Positions 1-7,470 of a stretch of DNA of 7,470 bases are shown piece by piece (the first letter of the stretch is position 1; each line of letters opens with the position of its first letter). Source of the stretch: Amoebophrya sp. A120 (taxonomy: Eukaryota; Protista; Dinoflagellata); the NCBI GenBank assembly GCA_905178155.1, contig CAJINV010000101.1, forward strand, positions 1-7,470, given 5' to 3'. The translations under genes were made by a program, and so were the position numbers. The notes beneath the pieces were generated by a model that had not been told where the DNA came from, did not search any database, and worked only from the letters and a program-made list of their open reading frames with translations.

Positions 1-30
1 TTCCAGACCCAGACATATTTGCACTTGATA
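1..30. mobile_element. Right TIR of a family A introner (partial; same sequence as 7376-7405)
   Basis: TTCCAGACCCAGACATATTTGCACTTGATA followed by presumptive DR CACAA (31-35). Confidence 0.85.
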
Positions 31-383
31 CACAACGTCTCTCTGCAAGACTTGGTGAAACTTCTCTCCATCGCGTACTTCCCGTACGAGAGCGACAAGG
101 CACTCCACGCCGCGGTCCAGGATGAATTCACGCAATTTGACCACAGCAGCCCGGAAGTGACGGCCAACAGTACCACTACACAGAGCGGCACGGGTAATCG
201 ACTTCTAAATCAGCCCGAACAGATTTCCTCCCGGTCGCCATCTAAATTGTCGGAAGCGAGCGTGAAAAGCGACAAAACAACAAGCTCATCGACCACGAGC
301 GCGATTTCTGCCAAAACCTTGAATCTCCTCCGCACACCGACGAAGAAAGAGAGAACCCAGGCGCTGCTCCGGTTCCGCGAAGT
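31..383 (+). CDS. ovoA: ovoA exon 1 (first visible; N-terminal extension and Ser/Thr-rich linker)
   Basis: HNVSLQDLVKLLSIAYFPYESDK...KERTQALLRFREV, in frame with exon 2 after removal of 384-643. No ATG start; preceded by the right end of an introner. Confidence 0.75.
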
Positions 384-3300
384 TATCAACTGCAAATATG
401 TCTGGGTCTCGAAGAAGGCAAGATTTTTCATCCTCAGCTAGCATGATTCTCAAGTCTGTCATGCACGTTACCCAAGAGCCTCGCTTTTCTGTCATGCGGA
501 AACGCAGTTTGTCATGCAGAATAGACTACAGTCCGACCACATCAGAAACTTGTCATGCTGGAACGGCACTTGCGGCACCCTAATCATTCGCCAAACAGCA
601 TCACAAGTTTCCAGACCCAGACATATTTGCAGTTGATAGAAGTGTTGAAGCACCAATTCCTGCAGACCTTCAACATCTACGAACGGCTTTTCTCCACCAT
701 CGCGACCTATCATTTGTAAAAACGTCCCCACACCAGGGTTGTCATGCAGATTTGCAACGACAGGAACATTTGTGATGCGCATCTCCATGAAAGGTATTTT
801 TAGTCGTGTTTTGGAATTTGTAATGCTGTAACCAGGATAGGCCGATGGATTTGTGATGCGTTTGTCCTTGCTACCCTGCACTTCACTACGAACTCCAACT
901 TGTGATGCGTGAGAACCAAAACTTCTAGGTTTGTGTTGCAAAGTCCCCATCTTGACTCTGTCGTGGGGACGTTTTTCCTTTTGATACGACCCCCGGACTG
1001 TTCTACCGCGCGGAGCGGTTGCGACACCACTTGATTTTCTATCTCGGCCACACTGCGGTTTTTTACTGGAACAAACTGATCTCCGCTGGCTGGGTGTGTG
1101 CGAACCAGCGCTTGCACGAGAAATTTGAAGCGATTTTCGCAGTGGGGGTGGACGAAATGAGCTGGGACGACCTGTTGGAAGATAATTACGACTGGTGCGG
1201 GTTTTCGGTGGAGCAGCAAGAGAACTATCGGAAGGAAGTGGAACAGTACAGGGCTTCCGTGCGGGAAGAGGTGTGTCGCCTGATCGACGAGTACGTGCTG
1301 GAGGAAGATATCACTGTTGGTCGGACGAATCCACGGACTGCACCAGATGAAAACAACACCTCTTTCCTCGCCTTTCAACCGGACGAACGGACTGTGGAAA
1401 AAAAGAACAGCAACATGAAAAAACCACATCAGCTATCAATTGCAAATATGTCTGGGTCTGGAAACTCGTGATGCTAAAATGTGCATGATGGAACAACTTC
1501 CGAATGCAGACCAGCATGACAACTTTCCGAAGCACTTTCTGATATGCTGCCCGCATGAGAAACTGCGTTTTTGCATGACAAAAATGGGTGCGGCTTTTGT
1601 CGGTTATGCAATACAGATTTCCCGGGAATGTAAAGCTAGCATTACAAGTTCCAACTTTCCAGACCCAGACATATTTGCATTTGATATCAGCAAGTGCGCG
1701 ACAACGCGCCACTGTTAAAGGCGACTTGCGGGAAACTCGTGTCGGAGTACATTTTGAAGTATCAAAAGGAAAAATCCCCCCTCCCCATATCAAAACGAAA
1801 TTTCTGATGCTGGATTTGGATACACAAATCAAATTTGTGTTGCAGTAGAGGAATGCACGCAGATCCTGAGCCTAGGCGGGGGCCTTTTGGTGTAGGCGCC
1901 TAGCATAGTAGACGGCTACCTTGTAGGCCGCAGAGCATTACAAATCGCCTGCATAACGTGGCGGCCAGCCTGAGTGTGCCTGCTTGCAAGACAGACCCGA
2001 TTTGTGGTCACAAATCAGCAACACAAATTATCGGAAACATACCTTTTCGATATGGGGAGAGGGGATTTTTCCTTTCGATATAAAGTACTGCACAACTACG
2101 TCCGCTACCAGCAACTTAGGTGGTGGAACCAACAACGCCCCCCTTGCGAAGCAGTTGCAAAATACCATGATCTGGATTCTGCTGATGGGCGCCGAGCACG
2201 AAAAGATCCACCAAGAAACCAGCTGCCCCATCCTGTCCCAGATGCCCTTGCAATACTTGAACAAGACACACCGGTGGCTGTACCCGATGGCAGAAGTCAA
2301 GACAAGTTCGTCCTCTTACTACGAAAGATCCGGCAACCCGCTGGTGCCCGTGAAAATGACGAGCTTGCTGAACACGGAGGATGAAGAACCCGCGGTGCAG
2401 CTCAGGTTCGGGAAAAACCACCTCGAATCGGATTTCTACGGGTGGGACAACGAGTTTGACAGTGAGCAGGCGAGTTTGTTGCCGTTTCAGGTCAGCCAAA
2501 CGCTGGTGTCCAACGCGGAGTTTTTAGAATTTGTGTTGGACGACGGGTACAAAAAAAAGCACTTCTGGACGGAGGAAGGGTGGCGGTTCGTCCAGGACCT
2601 CAACGTGGACCGGCCGCGGTTCTTATGCAAGAAGAAAAGTGTGGAAGTGTGAGTCTGTAATGCATAAGTGCGTACCACAATTATCACTTGTCATGCTAGC
2701 CAGCCACGATGTCCTTTTTTCATGAGTGTTTTTGAGTACTAGCTGCGCATGACAGGATTTCTTTGTCATACAGAGCAAATTTGTCATGCAGTCATGGCAC
2801 AAGACACGTTCACTAAACACAGTTTTTTTCCTTTGGACACTTCTGGCTCGACGCGGATAACGAAGTCGAAATGCAAACCGGCCGACCGTATAAAATGTAA
2901 AAATGTCTGGGCCTGGAAGATTCCCAGGCCTGTCATGCAGATTTTCCATGATCCATGTCGTCTGGAATGCAGGACCTAGCATGACAGGTTCTGTGAGAGT
3001 TCTATCATGCCTATCCGGCATGAGAAACTGCCTCTCACTTAGATCAAAATTGGACAGCTTTTGGCATTCATGCAACACAGATTTTTGCACGATCCAGAAT
3101 TAGCATTACAAGTTGCAACCTTCCAGACCCAGACATATTTGCAGTTCATAGACCGGTGACCAGCAGCGTGACGAAAGCTGAGCTGGACCAGGTTTTACTA
3201 CAACTTGATGGTAAGAACAAAAACCACGAGCAGATGCAAAAGAAACAGGACAAGCACAAAAATTTCGTCTACCGGGCCATGCTCTCCATCATCCCCATGC

Positions 3301-6300
3301 CGTGGGACTGGCCGGCGGAGGTCAACTATGCACTGCAAATCTGTTTGGTGTTCTGGAACAATGCTTAAATTTGTCATGCCTTTCTAGCATGACAACTCTG
3401 AGGTTTCTTATGCCCTCTTGCCTGTCATGCAAAAACGCACTCTCGTCCCAACATGCGGAATTCGCAAAACATCAGAAATTTGTGATGCGTGGCTGCATTT
3501 TCAAGTACGCTCATCAATCGCAGACTTGCATCACAAGTTCGTCCCAGACCTAAACATTTTTGCATTTGATATGAACCAGCTCGAGGCAGCGGCGTTTTGC
3601 AAGTGGAAGGCGGAGAAATTGAGCCAGCCGGATTTGCGACTGCTGGGGCATCCAGAGCAACTGTACCTGGCGCTGCATTGCGAAAAGGGGTTTGGGAAGA
3701 ACGCAAATTTAGCAGGTTTTGCGTCGCCGACCAGCGTGAATGTGCACTATGGGTACAGCAATTGTAGTACACCGTCGGAGGTGGATTCATCATCGTCAAA
3801 TAACCCGAAAGAGAAAAAAACGAAAATCTACGACATTGAGGGGAATGTTTGGCGGCACTCGATCTCCGTACTCACCCTAATGGACGGGTTTCAGCCGCAC
3901 ATTGCCTACGACGATTTTACCCTCCCTACCATTGATGGGGAGCACAACTTTATCGCAAGAAAAACTGTCTCAGTCTCAAAACTTTGCAGACGCAGCAATA
4001 CAAATTTGCCAAGCAAGAAACAAAAAATCTGTGATGCGTTCAAACATCAAGGGATAACACGTAAGGAAGGACGTCTTTCTTGATGCATTTCCGGCATGAC
4101 AAAAAACTGTCTCAAGGAAGTTGCGCATTACAGCTTGAGAGTGAGTAGACTGTGACAGTTTTTTCTCGCGACAAGTTTTATCCTGGGCGGGTCCTGGACC
4201 AGTATTGGAAACTGCGCGAACCCGGGGTCCAGGTACGGGTTCCGCCGGCACTTTTACCAGTACGCAGGGATCCGATTCTGTAGCGACTTCGGCGGGAAAA
4301 ATCTGCCGGTACTTCTTGTTTTTCGTACGAACTTCTCGATGTAAGTTGTAGCCATTTTATACGGAGGACCTTTCGTCCAGTACAACGACCCACATGAGCT
4401 ATTCAAACTATTGTGTTCATAATTCACATTTTTGGGAACGACCGTTTAATTTGATGTTGATCACACGAGACAAAGCAGAAGAAACAACTTTTCACGGTCT
4501 TCTTCCACCTATCCCCTACGAAAAACCTCTCGTGGTCTTGCAATAAAAGGGCGAAATACTAGAAACGAGTCGGTACTAGAGTGGTGAAAGTATATGTGCT
4601 TGTCTCGCGCAAAAATACAGAGGCTTCATTTGTTCGACCTTCTCTCACCAAAAACAGATGATCCACACGTCTGCACCCAAGATCCACGCGGCGACCCCGC
4701 TGGGCGTGAAACTTTCGGAGCACTACTACGAACTGTACGAGAGTCCAAACGCACTGCTGGGGCTGGATCAAGCCTACCTCGAACAGTACTTGCAAAAAGA
4801 TCACAAGCCGGTGTCCAACTGGCCACGGCTCTTCGGCGAGATTGCTAGCTACGTCGTCGATGCGGTGCAGCAAGGGACGAAACAGGATGAAGGAGGACCA
4901 CAGCCAATAAACACGAATAACAACACGGGTTCCCCTATCCTGAGGAAAAACGTCCCCACCCCAGAGTTGTCATGCAGATTTGCAATGACAAGGAAATTTG
5001 TGATGCGCATACCCATGGTAGACATTTCCAATCGTATTTTGGAATTTGTGATGCTGATAACAGGATAAGCAAATGAATCTGTGATGCGGCTGCACTTGCT
5101 AACCTGCACTACACTGCGGAGTGCAACTTGTCATGCGTGACTCCCAAAACTCCTAGGTTTGTGTTGCAAAATCCCCATCCTGACTCTGGTGTGGGGACGT
5201 TTTTGCTCAGGATGTCCCCCCGCCTGAAAGTCCTGGTCGCAAACGGGTCCGTCGGTCGCTGCTCGTTGGATATCACACAGAAAAAAGCAGGCAGGTCAAA
5301 CTTGTAATGCGACAATAAATAGACAAAAAAAATCTGTGTTGCATGTCCTGAACGGCATGCTACGGGGTTGCGCATGACAGATTTTACTGCGTATTCATTT
5401 TTGCATCACAAACATGCCCTGCCTGGTTTTTTCTGTGGGATATTGGAGTTGTTGAAGAAGTGCAAGAAGCTCGACGTGACCCACACGGACCCTATCGAAT
5501 GCAAATATGTCTGGGTCTGGAAGGTCGCAAGACTTGTCATGCAGGTTTTCCATGACAAATGCGGTCTGTCACATATGAACTAGCATGACAGATTCTGCGC
5601 CACCTCTATCATGCATCGTCTGCATGAGAAACTGCCTCTCAACTTGGTCAAAAGTGGGCAGTTGTTGGTAATCACGCAACACAGATTTTTGCACTATCCA
5701 GAATTAGCATGACAAGTTCCAGCGTTCCAGACCCAGACATATTTGCAATGCATAGACCCAACGGCGAATCTGCTCGCCCCGTTACAAGAGCTGTTGGACT
5801 CGGGGAAAGTGCAGTGGCGACAGACGATCGAGGGCGAGATCTGCGACCAAAGGGAGTACTTGCTGATGTCGGACGATAAAAATTCTATCACAGACGACAA
5901 CCATGGCAGCAACAGCAACACCACAAAGTCTTTTTTAGAAAAAAACGACAACACCTGCAATTTGGTTCAGATCCAAGACTACAAAACGTCATTGAACAAG
6001 CTCCCGACGAACCAGACCTTCGACATTTTACTTGCCGATTTCCGCTACACGAACTGCGAAGAAGAGCTAGCTGTTATCGTAAGGAAAAATCCCCCCTCCC
6101 CATCTTGAAAAGAAAATTTGTGATGCTGATTTGTGACCACAAATCAGCTTTGTCTTGCGTACAAGGCAAACGGCACCCATGTGGCGCATTGGAAAGCGAG
6201 TCTGTCATCCGTTTTCGCCTATGGCAGACTTGTTTCCCATGCTCATCTGCTAGCCGGGTGAGTAGTCACATGGGCTCAGAATCTGCCGGCAACCTGTTGC

Positions 6301-7151
6301 TGCAATACAAAGCTCATTTGTGTACACAAATCCAGCAACACAAATTGTCTTTTGAATATGAGGTGGAGCTTTTTTCACTTTGATAGCCGCCCTCGCCTCC
6401 CGCTGCCACGGAGTTCTACTGCTCGCGACGCTGCATATCAAATGCAAATATGTCTGGGTCTGGAAACTTGTGATGCTAAAACGTGGATGATAGAAACAGT
6501 CCCGAATGCAACCCAGCATGACAACTTTCTAGAACGCTTTCTCATAGGAAATCCGCATGAGAAACTGCGTTTTTGTATGTACAAAAGAGGCCGCGACTTT
6601 TGCTGGTTACGCAATACAGATTTCCTAGGTATCGAAAGCAAGCATTACAAGTTCCAACCCTCCAGACCCAGACATATTTGCATTTGATACTGCACAAAGT
6701 CGAGCAGCTCCCCGGGTTCGAAAAGTCGGATTTGCTGGACAGCGTCCGCGCGGAGGCCCTCGGTTTTTTCACCTCCAATGGCGACCGGGAGCCGGAAAGG
6801 ACGAAATCTATCAAATGCAAAAATGTCTGGGTCTGGGAGATCGCGAGACTTGTCATGCTACTCTGGCATGACACTGGAATCTGTGTTGCGTAGCCGCATA
6901 GAGCTCCTCTTCCTTGTCATGCAAAAACGCAGTTTCTCATGCGGAGGACGCAATTCAGAACCACGAAAAAACTTGTCATGCTTGGCAGCGCATTACAGCG
7001 TGCTCGCTATTCCTTTCCTTGCATCACAAGTTTCAAGACCCAGACATATTTGCAATGCATAAAGTCCCATTGGAGACGAATGCGGGCGAAGGGGGTGGCG
7101 CACTTGGAGAAGCAAACGATCCACAAACACCAGTTTTTCCGCAGTTACCTT
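31..7151 (+). CDS. ovoA: OvoA-like 5-histidylcysteine sulfoxide synthase / methyltransferase (ovothiol synthase), multi-exon, 5' and 3' partial
   Basis: Manual join of 31-383, 644-707, 992-1433, 1692-1759, 2086-2623, 2845-2888, 3156-3326, 3577-3950, 4179-4308, 4658-4935, 5220-5270, 5448-5492, 5760-6074, 6391-6435, 6695-6808, 7067-7151 gives 3117 nt (1039 codons) with no stop. Motifs recognised from memory as OvoA-family, in the expected order: LRHHLIFYLGHT, FAVGVDEMSWDDL, MGAEHEKIHQETS (HX3HXE), YGWDNE, VSNAEFLEFV, MPWDWPAEVN, GNVW, YDDF, GGSWTSIGN, RRHFYQYAGIR, then a methyltransferase-like region. Exact junctions can slide within the 5-nt DRs. Confidence 0.92.
384..638. mobile_element. Family A TIR introner, 255 nt (non-canonical intron 1, orientation R)
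   Basis: Perfect 26-nt TIR TATCAACTGCAAATATGTCTGGGTCT; DR GAAGT at 379-383 and 639-643. Confidence 0.92.
644..707 (+). CDS. ovoA: ovoA exon 2
   Basis: LKHQFLQTFNIYERLFSTIAT, resembling the first helix of the OvoA DinB-like domain; in frame on both sides. Confidence 0.85.
708..986. mobile_element. Family B TIR introner, 279 nt (intron 2)
   Basis: TATCATTTGTAAAAACGTCCCCAC ... GTGGGGACGTTTTTCCTTTTGATA; DR CGACC at 703-707 and 987-991; colinear with and the same length as 4936-5214. Confidence 0.92.
992..1433 (+). CDS. ovoA: ovoA exon 3 (DinB-like domain)
   Basis: PGLFYRAERLRHHLIFYLGHTAVFYWNKL...FEAIFAVGVDEMSWDDL; overlaps ORF 1019..1471. Confidence 0.93.
1434..1686. mobile_element. Family A TIR introner, 253 nt (intron 3, orientation F)
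   Basis: TATCAATTGCAAATATGTCTGGGTCTGGAAA ... TTTCCAGACCCAGACATATTTGCATTTGATA; DR TCAGC at 1429-1433 and 1687-1691; close relative of 6436-6689. Confidence 0.92.
1692..1759 (+). CDS. ovoA: ovoA exon 4
   Basis: QVRDNAPLLKATCGKLVSEYILK; open and in frame between two elements; no recognised motif. Confidence 0.75.
1760..2080. mobile_element. Family C TIR introner, 321 nt (intron 4)
   Basis: TATCAAAAGGAAAAATCCCCCCTCCCCATATC ... GATATGGGGAGAGGGGATTTTTCCTTTCGATA; DR TGAAG (1755-1759) / TAAAG (2081-2085). Confidence 0.9.
2086..2623 (+). CDS. ovoA: ovoA exon 5 (HX3HXE iron motif, start of FGE-like domain)
   Basis: IWILLMGAEHEKIHQETS...FYGWDNEF...VSNAEFLEFVLDDGY...WTEEGW...RPRF; overlaps ORF 1984..2652. 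Confidence 0.93.
2624..2839. mobile_element. Degenerate TIR introner, 216 nt (intron 5, tentatively family D)
   Basis: TATGCAAGAAGAAAAGTGTG ... CACAGTTTTTTTCCTTTGGACA, a decayed IR; DR GTTCT (2619-2623) / CTTCT (2840-2844); internal TGTNATGC motifs. Confidence 0.75.
2845..2888 (+). CDS. ovoA: ovoA exon 6
   Basis: Completes PRF-W across the junction, then LDADNEVEMQTGRP; in frame. Confidence 0.8.
2889..3150. mobile_element. Family A TIR introner, 262 nt (intron 6, orientation F)
   Basis: TATAAAATGTAAAAATGTCTGGGCCTGGAAG ... CTTCCAGACCCAGACATATTTGCAGTTCATA; DR GACCG at 2884-2888 and 3151-3155; same length as and colinear with 5493-5754. Confidence 0.92.
3156..3326 (+). CDS. ovoA: ovoA exon 7
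   Basis: ...YRAMLSIIPMPWDWPAEVN; overlaps ORF 3156..3368. Confidence 0.9.
3327..3571. mobile_element. Family A TIR introner, 245 nt (intron 7, orientation R, decayed)
   Basis: TATGCACTGCAAATCTGTTTGG ... CCAGACCTAAACATTTTTGCATTTGATA; DR TCAAC (3322-3326) / TGAAC (3572-3576). Confidence 0.87.
3577..3950 (+). CDS. ovoA: ovoA exon 8 (FGE-like domain)
   Basis: QLEAAAFCKWK...YDIEGNVW...GFQPHIAYDDFTLPTIDGEHNF; overlaps ORF 3418..4083. Confidence 0.92.
3951..4173. mobile_element. Family D TIR introner, 223 nt (intron 8)
   Basis: TATCGCAAGAAAAACTGTCTCAGTCT ... AGACTGTGACAGTTTTTTCTCGCGACA; degenerate DR AACTT (3946-3950) / AGTTT (4174-4178); contains an in-frame stop (4081-4083). Confidence 0.85.
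4179..4308 (+). CDS. ovoA: ovoA exon 9 (end of FGE-like domain)
   Basis: ILGGSWTSIGNCANPGSRYGFRRHFYQYAGIRFCSDFGGKNLP; absent from the ORF track. The 3' boundary could instead be 4340. Confidence 0.88.
4309..4657 (+). other. Probable canonical GT-AG spliceosomal intron (intron 9)
   Basis: CCG|GTACTT ... AAAAACAG|ATG, phase 0, in frame; more AT-rich than the exons; no TIR, DR or TGTNATGC motif seen. An alternative in-frame pair is GTAAGT at 4341 with TACAG ending at 4620. Confidence 0.65.
4658..4935 (+). CDS. ovoA: ovoA exon 10 (start of methyltransferase-like region)
   Basis: MIHTSAPK...KLSEHYYE...NWPRLFGE...NTGSP, preceded by AAAAACAG; overlaps ORF 4658..5068. Confidence 0.78.
4936..5214. 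mobile_element. Family B TIR introner, 279 nt (intron 10)
   Basis: TATCCTGAGGAAAAACGTCCCCACCCCAGAGT ... ACTCTGGTGTGGGGACGTTTTTGCTCAGGATG; DR TCCCC at 4931-4935 and 5215-5219. Confidence 0.92.
5220..5270 (+). CDS. ovoA: ovoA exon 11 (degenerate SAM motif I)
   Basis: RLKVLVANGSVGRCSLE, comparable to the typical LDLGCAVGRxSFE. Confidence 0.82.
5271..5442. mobile_element. Family E TIR introner, 172 nt (intron 11)
   Basis: TATCACACAGAAAAAAGCAGGCAGG ... CCTGCCTGGTTTTTTCTGTGGGATA; DR TTGGA at 5266-5270 and 5443-5447. Confidence 0.9.
5448..5492 (+). CDS. ovoA: ovoA exon 12
   Basis: LLKKCKKLDVTHTDP; in frame on both sides. Confidence 0.8.
5493..5754. mobile_element. Family A TIR introner, 262 nt (intron 12, orientation F)
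   Basis: TATCGAATGCAAATATGTCTGGGTCTGGAA ... TTCCAGACCCAGACATATTTGCAATGCATA; DR GACCC at 5488-5492 and 5755-5759. Confidence 0.92.
5760..6074 (+). CDS. ovoA: ovoA exon 13
   Basis: TANLLAPLQELLDSGKVQWRQTIEGEI...FDILLADFRY...EELAV; overlaps ORF 5743..6108. Confidence 0.82.
6075..6385. mobile_element. Family C TIR introner, 311 nt (intron 13, inverted relative to intron 4)
   Basis: TATCGTAAGGAAAAATCCCCCCTCCCCATC ... ATATGAGGTGGAGCTTTTTTCACTTTGATA; DR GCTGT (6070-6074) / GCCGC (6386-6390). Confidence 0.85.
6391..6435 (+). CDS. ovoA: ovoA exon 14
   Basis: LASRCHGVLLLATLH, comparable to the methyltransferase LxPGGxLxL strand; in frame. Confidence 0.78.
6436..6689. mobile_element. Family A TIR introner, 254 nt (intron 14, orientation F)
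   Basis: Perfect TIR TATCAAATGCAAATATGTCTGGGTCTGGA; DR CTGCA at 6431-6435 and 6690-6694. Confidence 0.93.
6695..6808 (+). CDS. ovoA: ovoA exon 15
   Basis: KVEQLPGFEKSDLLDSVRAEALGFFTSNGDREPERTKS; in frame. Confidence 0.78.
6809..7061. mobile_element. Family A TIR introner, 253 nt (intron 15, orientation R)
   Basis: TATCAAATGCAAAAATGTCTGGGTCT ... AGACCCAGACATATTTGCAATGCATA; DR AAATC (6804-6808) / AAGTC (7062-7066). Confidence 0.92.
7067..7151 (+). CDS. ovoA: ovoA exon 16 (last visible, near C-terminus)
   Basis: HWRRMRAKGVAHLEKQTIHKHQFFRSYL, loosely similar to the OvoA C-terminal VPFVIRETxRKFQH segment; no stop codon reached. Confidence 0.72.
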
Positions 7152-7405
7152 TATCAAATGCAAATATGTCTGGTTCTGGAAGGGTGTAAGTTGTAATGCT
7201 GCATTTGGATTCCAAAAAAAATCTGTGTTGCAGGAATAGCAAAAGGGGTGCGTTTTTTGCCACGCGGAGGGAGTATTTCTCATGCAGTATGGGCATCAGA
7301 AAGCCGTCACAATATCTGTGACGCTAGGGCATGCATCACAGACATCGCCGGTGATACAAAATGTGCATGACAAACTTCCAGACCCAGACATATTTGCACT
7401 TGATA
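7152..7405. mobile_element. Family A TIR element, 254 nt, apparently hybrid (closes the circle; orientation R)
   Basis: Normal TIRs, but the flanks ACCTT (7147-7151) and CACAA (7406-7410) do not match and the junction is out of frame. Confidence 0.85.
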
Positions 7406-7470
7406 CACAACGTCTCTCTGCAAGACTTGGTGAAACTTCTCTCCATCGCGTACTTCCCGTACGAGAGCGA
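7376..7470 (+). repeat. Exact 95-nt terminal direct repeat of 1-95 (circular or tandem contig overlap; unit 7375 bp)
   Basis: TTCCAGACCC...GTACGAGAGCGA is identical at both ends of the window. Confidence 0.95.

What the first reader, a model, noticed from the sequence alone, without database searches (positions are those of the whole stretch)
384..7166. Five TIR families share one terminal code: TATC-N6-AAA(A/T)A plus a 5-bp duplication
Seen, first 15 nt: A TATCAAATGC-AAATA, B TATCATTTGT-AAAAA and TATCCTGAGG-AAAAA, C TATCAAAAGG-AAAAA and TATCGTAAGG-AAAAA, D TATCGCAAGA-AAAAC, E TATCACACAG-AAAAA. The right ends mirror this, while sequence beyond about nt 15 is family-specific. Inference: one transposase lineage or one removal machinery reads positions 1-4 and 11-15. 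TAT..ATA ends with a 5-bp TSD do not match a eukaryotic DNA transposon superfamily I recognise (Transib has 5-bp TSDs but CAC..GTG ends; Tc1/mariner duplicates TA only). No transposase is encoded in this window.
Basis: partly seen in the sequence, partly recalled or inferred. Interest (0 to 1): 0.72.

Follow-up and report, generated by a model that had tools for sequence, protein, structure and literature searches.

The report
Known Amoebophrya hairpin introns
The repeats are real, but they are already described: they are short inverted-repeat elements, likely transposon-derived, that interrupt a gene of the marine parasite Amoebophrya A120 and are missing from a probable RNA copy of that gene, so they likely act as introns without the usual GT-AG ends.

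Summary
Fifteen inverted-repeat elements fill 52% of the window; 26 of 30 ends read TAT-N7-AAA and 20 of 30 read TATC-N6-AAAWA. The DNA between them encodes residues 619-1534 of an Amoebophrya sp. A120 OvoA-like protein (915 of 916 aligned residues identical). One contig of a probable RNA run skips exactly element plus 5 nt at 14 of 14 complete elements, none with a GT/GC-AG register. Farhat et al. 2021 (PMC7789003) describe these A120 introner elements with this end motif and 3-5-nt direct repeats.

Small additions: the repeat is strictly 5 nt in a related assembly (272 of 817 pairs, against 6 and 0 for 4 and 6 nt); mismatched repeats place the cut after base 3 or 4 (p about 0.05); an interior heptamer is shared across families; TA..TA ends resemble IS3EU/GingerRoot, whose duplications are usually 6 bp. 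The window's circular form is likely an assembly artefact. No transposase was found, and removal at DNA level was not tested. The scan earlier noted a similar fixed-position intron family in another genome.

The parts
1..95 (.). 95-nt overlap identical to 7376-7470; likely an assembly closure, not a real circle
   Evidence: the transcript contig and P0001 run on with other sequence at both ends
31..383 (+). Exon, P0001 residues 619-735 (exon limits are given up to the elements; the cut lies inside the 5-nt repeat)
   Evidence: 117 of 117 aa exact
384..638 (.). Family A element, exact 5-nt direct repeat
   Evidence: (skip 260)
639..707 (+). Exon, P0001 735-757
708..986 (.). Family B element, exact repeat
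   Evidence: skip 284
987..1433 (+). Exon, P0001 757-904, OvoA N-terminal part
   Evidence: (TIGR04344 E 1.3e-27)
1434..1686 (.). Family A element, exact repeat
   Evidence: skip 258
1687..1759 (+). Exon, P0001 904-927
1760..2080 (.). Family C element, repeat differs at base 2; the transcript uses the 5' copy
   Evidence: (skip 326)
2081..2623 (+). Exon, P0001 927-1106
   Evidence: (E 7.8e-34)
2624..2839 (.).
   Evidence: (skip 221)
2840..2888 (+). Exon, P0001 1106-1121
2889..3150 (.). Family A element, exact repeat
   Evidence: skip 267
3151..3326 (+). Exon, P0001 1121-1178
3327..3571 (.). Divergent family A element, repeat differs at base 2
   Evidence: (skip 250)
3572..3950 (+). Exon, P0001 1178-1302
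3951..4173 (.). Family D element, repeat differs at bases 2 and 3, right end starts TGT
   Evidence: (skip 228)
4174..4308 (+). Exon, end of the OvoA sulfoxide-synthase region, P0001 1303-1346
4309..4657 (+). Ordinary GT-AG intron, 349 nt
4658..4935 (+). Exon absent from the public model P0001 but present in the X3 contig and in homolog P0002
   Evidence: 59% identity, E 9e-29
4936..5214 (.). Family B element, exact repeat
   Evidence: skip 284
5215..5270 (+). Exon absent from P0001
5271..5442 (.). Family E element, exact repeat
   Evidence: skip 177
5443..5492 (+). Exon absent from P0001
5493..5754 (.). Family A element, exact repeat
   Evidence: skip 267
5755..6074 (+). Exon, P0001 1347-1452
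6075..6385 (.). Family C element, repeat differs at bases 3 and 5; brackets the cut to after base 3 or 4
   Evidence: (skip 316)
6386..6435 (+). Exon, P0001 1452-1467
6436..6689 (.). Family A element, exact repeat
   Evidence: skip 259
6690..6808 (+). Exon, P0001 1467-1505
6809..7061 (.). Family A element, repeat differs at base 3
   Evidence: (skip 258)
7062..7151 (+). Exon, P0001 1505-1534; the gene continues outside the window
   Evidence: (loose end behind 7150)
7152..7405 (.). Family A element without a direct repeat; likely a hybrid of the two A copies that flank this stretch in the genome
   Evidence: hybrid origin inferred

Best explanation
[quoted passage not shown] Shown: anatomy, host gene, exact element+5 skips in one probable-RNA contig, and no GT/GC-AG register. 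Predicted: the ends pair into a long terminal stem (RNA folding). Inferred: (1) they arrived as non-autonomous DNA transposons, the repeat being a target-site duplication made by an enzyme encoded elsewhere, most plausibly an integrase-type DDE transposase; (2) removal is positional: the stem, with its TAT and AAA blocks, holds the ends together, and the cut falls 1-2 nt upstream of the first TAT and 3-4 nt downstream of the last ATA, whatever the bases there; (3) the 7375-nt circle is an assembly closure through two similar family A copies. I put the identity at 0.95, RNA-level removal at 0.9, a fixed ruler cut at 0.6 and an integrase-type mobiliser at 0.4.
For: Exon 2083-2622 is 100% identical to P0001, named Amoebophrya sp. 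A120; 915 of 916 aligned residues match over 13 exons. Removing element+5 nt at all 14 elements plus the GT-AG intron gives 1039 codons with no stop; +0, 1, 3, 4, 6 or 7 gives 19-27 stops, and +2 or +8 also stay open. One 6083-nt contig of run X3 skips exactly element+5 at 14 of 14 elements and also skips the GT-AG intron, as a spliced mRNA would. No junction offers GT/GC..AG (0 of 14). Farhat et al. give the A120 motif as TAT, seven less-conserved bases and at least three A, with 3-5-nt direct repeats over the boundaries. All 7 informative junctions fit a cut after repeat base 3 or 4. In related loci an exact 5-nt repeat flanks 272 of 817 short inverted-repeat pairs, and copies lie in both orientations to the inferred transcript (12:7, 2:4, 2:4). 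12-20 of the first 20 bases pair with the far end in the predicted fold of each of 15 elements.
Against: The RNA evidence is one assembled contig from one run whose RNA status the tool only guesses; three raw-read RNA runs under the same species label laid 4, 0 and 2 reads and tested nothing. X3 need not be independent of the data behind P0001. No DNA run was laid, so a joined form in DNA is not excluded. The common cut register has p about 0.05 under independent random cuts, and Farhat et al. call the splice sites variable relative to the hairpin (Fig. 3 legend). No transposase was found: the longest candidate, 1104 nt in L018, holds only low-complexity frames by eye. Farhat et al. report putative transposases only in A25 and argue against general transposase mobilisation. 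9 of 29 end clusters lack a TAT-N7-AAA consensus.
Confidence: 0.92

Rival explanations
1. The elements are removed from DNA in a developmental stage, like ciliate internal eliminated sequences, and the joined contig is rearranged DNA.
For: Precise removal of element plus one repeat copy, and symmetric ends in either orientation, would suit a DNA excisase; X3 is only guessed to be RNA.
Against: The same contig also lacks the GT-AG intron 4309-4657, which points to spliced mRNA. Farhat et al. called these introns by mapping RNA-seq on the genome (methods passage).
Confidence: 0.04
2. A modified U2 spliceosome with relaxed site choice removes them; the stem only brings the ends close and the cut slides within the direct repeat.
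For: Most spliceosome proteins and U2, U4, U5, U6 are present in A120 (PMC7789003 section 10 passages); the gene also has a normal GT-AG intron; sliding inside an exact repeat leaves the mRNA unchanged, so 8 of 14 junctions cannot tell.
Against: All 7 informative junctions fit one register. In related loci 16 of 41 repeat mismatches are synonymous, as expected (0.39) if one copy is free of coding constraint, not more as sliding would predict (weak).
Confidence: 0.35
3. The end code is read only by a transposase; splicing needs just a stem of any sequence.
For: The bipartite pattern (bases 1-3 and 11-13) is one helical turn apart, as in DNA-binding sites (inference); some clusters lack the AAA block yet keep TAT and the 5-nt repeat.
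Against: Old copies only 50-80% alike inside still keep TAT and AAA at most ends, which would fit continuing selection. Not tested directly.
Confidence: 0.4
4. The window is a real extrachromosomal circle formed by recombination between two family A copies.
For: 95-nt terminal overlap and a family A element without a direct repeat at the joint.
Against: An assembly closure gives the same picture; the transcript and P0001 continue linearly on both sides; P0001 lies on a contig of 11.8 Mb.
Confidence: 0.07

Closest known systems
Introner elements among the non-canonical introns of Amoebophrya sp. A120 (Farhat et al. 2021, PMC7789003)
   Same: Same organism by protein identity, same TAT-N7-AAA end motif, direct repeat over the boundaries, non-GT-AG ends, repeated families, lengths near the 240-nt average for A120 non-canonical introns, mixed with canonical introns in one gene.
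   Different: Nothing in kind. The paper gives repeats of 3-5 nt and variable splice positions; here the repeat is 5 nt and the cut fits one register. Its main text has no hit for 'subterminal', and I saw no interior motif in the sections read.
IS3EU/GingerRoot DNA transposons (PMC10045372)
   Same: TA..TA termini, occasionally TG..CA in GingerRoot, as here (two ends start TGT).
   Different: Their duplications are usually 6 bp; here an exact 6-nt repeat flanks 0 of 817 pairs. No transposase was available to compare.
Amoebophrya A120 introner family 38 (Gozashti et al. 2025, PMC12130899)
   Same: A120 introner with terminal inverted repeats and ORFs resembling Copia/Gypsy sequences; a candidate for the missing mobiliser.
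   Different: Its termini and duplication length were not in the passages I saw; a link to families A-F is untested.
Nonconventional introns of euglenids (review PMC11282704)
   Same: Non-GT-AG junctions, terminal inverted repeats pairing at RNA level, duplication-like repeats at the junctions, removal mechanism unknown.
   Different: Different lineage and end motif (CAG/CTG at +4-6 and -8-6); their excised introns are reported as circles, which was not tested here.
Transib
   Same: 5-bp duplication.
   Different: CAC..GTG termini are absent.

Membership tests
Amoebophrya A120 introner elements | Host is Amoebophrya sp. A120 | tested here: met
   915 of 916 aligned residues identical to P0001, named A120 by its sources
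Amoebophrya A120 introner elements | Inverted repeat starting TAT, seven variable bases, at least three A | tested here: met
   26 of 30 ends; definition
Amoebophrya A120 introner elements | 3-5-nt direct repeat overlapping the exon/intron boundary | tested here: met
   5-nt repeat at 14 of 14 complete elements, 8 exact; every joint can lie within it
Amoebophrya A120 introner elements | Removed from RNA without GT-AG ends | tested here: met
   14 of 14 skipped in one contig of a probable RNA run; 0 of 14 with a GT/GC-AG register
Amoebophrya A120 introner elements | Repeated in families, hairpin-forming | tested here: met
   interior identity 0.78-0.80 for three pairs; predicted terminal stems in 15 of 15
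Non-autonomous TIR DNA transposon (MITE) | Terminal inverted repeats and fixed-length target duplication | tested here: met
   272 of 817 pairs with an exact 5-nt repeat against 6 (4 nt) and 0 (6 nt)
Non-autonomous TIR DNA transposon (MITE) | Cognate transposase element with the same ends | tested here: inconclusive
   3 long candidates in 614 kb of loci, none shown to encode one; no whole genome held
Non-autonomous TIR DNA transposon (MITE) | Empty sites in DNA of related strains | not tested
   no orthologous genomic locus was fetched
IS3EU/GingerRoot | TA..TA termini | tested here: met
   TA at 27 of 30 ends; definition
IS3EU/GingerRoot | Usually 6-bp duplication | tested here: not met
   0 of 817 exact 6-nt repeats
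IS3EU/GingerRoot | IS3-like DDE transposase | not testable with these tools
   no autonomous copy at hand
Transib | CAC..GTG termini (recalled) | tested here: not met
Canonical U2 intron | GT/GC..AG ends | tested here: not met
   0 of 14 elements in any allowed register; met by the separate intron 4309-4657
Ciliate-type eliminated sequence | Joined form exists in DNA | not tested
   no DNA run was laid
OvoA (host gene) | TIGR04344 and TIGR04345 domains | tested here: inconclusive
   P0001 scores 396 bits (cut-off 400) and 100 bits (cut-off 170); E 2e-118 and 1e-28; OvoA-like, activity untested

The most novel reading that the evidence does not exclude
A120 introns are cut by a sequence-blind ruler machine, independent of U1 and of splice-site bases, that measures 1-2 nt before TAT and 3-4 nt after ATA from the terminal stem, helped by a repeated interior heptamer; and the elements descend from an undescribed TA..TA, 5-bp-duplicating lineage of integrase-type transposons.
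Probability: 0.3. Interest if true: 0.75.

Novelty: already known. Interest (0 to 1): 0.27.

Why it matters
The elements and their end motif are in print, so the finding is a rediscovery. The open question behind it is real: how Amoebophrya removes tens of thousands of introns that lack GT-AG ends while U1 snRNA was not detected (PMC7789003). Mismatched direct repeats offer a way to map the true cut genome-wide from existing RNA data, and a strict 5-nt duplication with TA..TA ends narrows the search for the mobilising enzyme. Such windows also mislead gene finders (the public model skips three exons) and can assemble into false circles.

Tried and rejected
No whole genome is held for this window, so genome-wide logos were replaced by 151 loci (614 kb, overlapping in part, chosen by the family A end and so biased to it) from a related assembly whose copies match the window's elements at 68-90% at best. 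The family A end pattern found nothing in viral contigs. No listed holder is on record as RNA; raw-read RNA runs X9-X11 laid 4, 0 and 2 reads and gave no test. My first reading, a single 1050-aa gene on a 7375-nt circle starting at 4658, was rejected: 4309-4657 is an intron and the gene runs on at both ends. Repeat mismatches in related loci fall on all five positions (13, 8, 7, 7, 6) and do not locate the cut. The two stop-making mismatches lie in the 3' copy, but frames were chosen under that register, so I give this no weight. Frame keeping alone fixes the repeat only modulo 3. The long candidate in L018 was read by eye and by ORF list only; no family scan of it was completed. A Pfam CDI-toxin-like hit on 1-438 (E 0.009, below cut-off) is treated as chance on a low-complexity linker. 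Nothing was noted earlier for this genome.
Full report
Observation. The window holds 15 inverted-repeat elements of 172-321 nt that cover 52% of its 7375 unique bases. It fits 20 of 30 element ends, while TAT-N7-AAA fits 26 of 30. With each family weighted equally, positions 1-4 carry 1.35-2.0 bits, positions 11-15 carry 1.4-2.0 bits, positions 5-10 at most 0.96 and positions 16-25 at most 0.55. A 5-nt direct repeat flanks 14 of 15 elements, exactly in 8. One element (2624-2839) was not among the five families.

What they interrupt. The stretches between the elements are exons on the + strand. Five of 11 exons scanned hit the OvoA model TIGR04344 in order along the profile. A search with exon 2083-2622 returned P0001, 1872 aa, named Amoebophrya sp. 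A120 by its sources, 100% identical over the query; the next hit was 48%. Thirteen of 16 exons match P0001 residues 619-1534 in order, with 915 of 916 aligned residues identical; the other three (4658-5492) are absent from that model. The one difference lies inside the repeat at 6070-6074, where the model follows the 3' copy, as the X3 contig does. P0001 scores 396 bits on TIGR04344 (cut-off 400) and 100 on TIGR04345 (cut-off 170), so it is OvoA-like, an ovothiol-biosynthesis enzyme by family annotation.

Removal. One 6083-nt contig of run X3, which the tool guesses to be RNA, skips exactly element plus 5 nt at 14 of 14 complete elements. The same contig skips 4309-4657, an ordinary GT-AG intron, which is what a spliced mRNA would show. 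No element offers GT or GC with AG in any register that the joint allows (0 of 14). Three raw-read RNA runs laid 4, 0 and 2 reads and tested nothing. No DNA run was laid, so removal from DNA is not excluded by my own data. Removing element+5 everywhere gives 1039 codons without a stop; +2 and +8 are also open, the other six values give 19-27 stops.

The circle. The window ends in a 95-nt overlap. Element 7152-7405 has no direct repeat, X3 has loose ends behind 7150 and before 7406, and these translate to the residues that follow 1534 and precede 619 in P0001 (compared by eye). The gene is therefore linear and longer than the window. The last element is most simply a hybrid of the two family A copies that flank the stretch, joined by the assembler (inference); a recombination circle is not excluded.

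Known status. Farhat et al. 2021 (PMC7789003; I saw the abstract, sections 11, 12 and 16 whole, passages of section 10 and the methods, and part 2 of 5 of the supplement, legends and tables only) define introner elements in A120: non-canonical introns with 8-20-nt inverted repeats and 3-5-nt direct repeats over the boundaries. They report 29,850 copies in 1954 families, whose motifs start with TAT, continue with seven less-conserved bases and end with at least three A. That is the finding. They did not detect U1 snRNA, found putative transposases only in A25, and leave both splicing and origin open. Gozashti et al. 2025 (PMC12130899, passages) report an A120 introner family with terminal inverted repeats and ORFs resembling Copia/Gypsy sequences. 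Kojima and Bao 2023 (PMC10045372, passages; the author names are partly recalled) give TA..TA termini and usually 6-bp duplications for IS3EU/GingerRoot. A review (PMC11282704, passages) describes the parallel case in euglenids.

Wider sample. A pattern scan returned 151 loci (614 kb, partly overlapping, biased to family A) from another assembly whose copies match the window's elements at 68-90% at best. Of 817 short inverted-repeat pairs starting TAT or TGT, 272 have an exact 5-nt repeat, 6 an exact 4-nt and 0 an exact 6-nt repeat. In a scan with no start-letter rule, 308 of 368 pairs begin TAT at one end or both; shuffles of 40 loci gave 6 hits against 156. The 60 pairs with neither end TAT were dropped before clustering. 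Across the 29 clusters positions 1-3 carry 1.7-2.0 bits, 11-13 carry 1.1-1.6, and 4, 14 and 15 only 0.7-0.85; 20 of 29 consensus ends and 520 of 616 single ends read TAT-N7-AAA, 252 of 616 the stricter code. The shared code is real but looser than the title says. Three pairs of 1.0-1.9 kb with an exact repeat were found; none was shown to encode a transposase.

Mechanism. Shown: anatomy, host gene, exact skips, no canonical ends. Predicted: terminal stems in all 15 elements, with 12-20 of the first 20 bases paired to the far end. Inferred: insertion by a transposase acting in trans, which left the 5-nt duplication, and removal by position rather than by sequence. Where the two repeat copies differ, the transcript takes bases 1-3 from the 5' copy and base 5 from the 3' copy at all 7 informative junctions (six complete elements plus the loose end at 7150), so a cut after base 3 or 4 fits all. 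Independent random cuts would share some register with probability 0.049, so this is suggestive only, and the paper describes splice sites as variable. In related loci 16 of 41 mismatches are synonymous against 0.39 expected if one copy is free, which fits a fixed cut but is weak. Copies lie in both orientations to the inferred transcript, as a symmetric signal predicts. An interior heptamer, T[GC]TVATGC or its reverse, occurs 61 times in elements and 0 times outside (pattern chosen after seeing the window). In the related loci it occurs at 13.4 against 1.0 per kb, and in every copy of 13 of the 14 largest clusters, including two that lack the AAA block (overlapping loci counted twice). It suggests one ancestry or one binding protein for all families. 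I found no mention of it, or of the register, in two paper searches and a term search of the 2021 paper, but that paper's figures were not visible.

Against my reading. The RNA support is one contig. No transposase was found. The first repeat base falls on codon position 3 in 96 of 178 frame-called elements in related loci but in only 2 of 14 in this gene, which I cannot explain.

Verdict. A real feature, already known: Amoebophrya A120 introner elements acting as non-canonical introns. Interest 0.27 for the small refinements and the still open splicing mechanism.

Noticed in passing
window 4658-5492: Three exons (123 aa net) are skipped by the public model P0001, which joins 4308 to about 5755, but they are in the X3 contig; the first matches homolog P0002 at 59%. 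The public model is likely incomplete.
   Followed up: yes
P0001 residues 1-618, upstream of window 31: The N-terminal region aligns at 27-30% with proteins that carry an aminotransferase class V domain (P0005, P0006, P0008, P0009), so the gene may be an OvoB-like lyase fused to OvoA. PMC8433421 (passages) calls the Hydra fusion the only case reported so far. P0001 itself had no such Pfam hit at E 0.01.
   Followed up: partly
inside all 15 elements; loci L001-L151: Interior heptamer T[GC]TVATGC shared across families, 1-7 copies per element.
   Followed up: partly
loci L001-L151 against window 384-7061: Codon-phase bias of insertion: first repeat base on codon position 3 in 96 of 178 elements (p 3e-8), but 8 of 14 on position 1 in this gene. 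Unexplained.
   Followed up: partly
window 4936-5492: After the sulfoxide-synthase region the gene seems to carry a first, degenerate methyltransferase-like stretch before the C-terminal one that Pfam detects at P0001 1657-1818 (resemblance by eye; for the second).
   Followed up: no
L018:505-1608: A 1104-nt element with TAT ends, an exact 5-nt repeat and no AAA block; its interior is GC-rich and repetitive, with no convincing ORF.
   Followed up: partly
window 1-95 and 7376-7470: The terminal overlap makes this eukaryotic gene fragment look like a complete circular element.
   Followed up: yes
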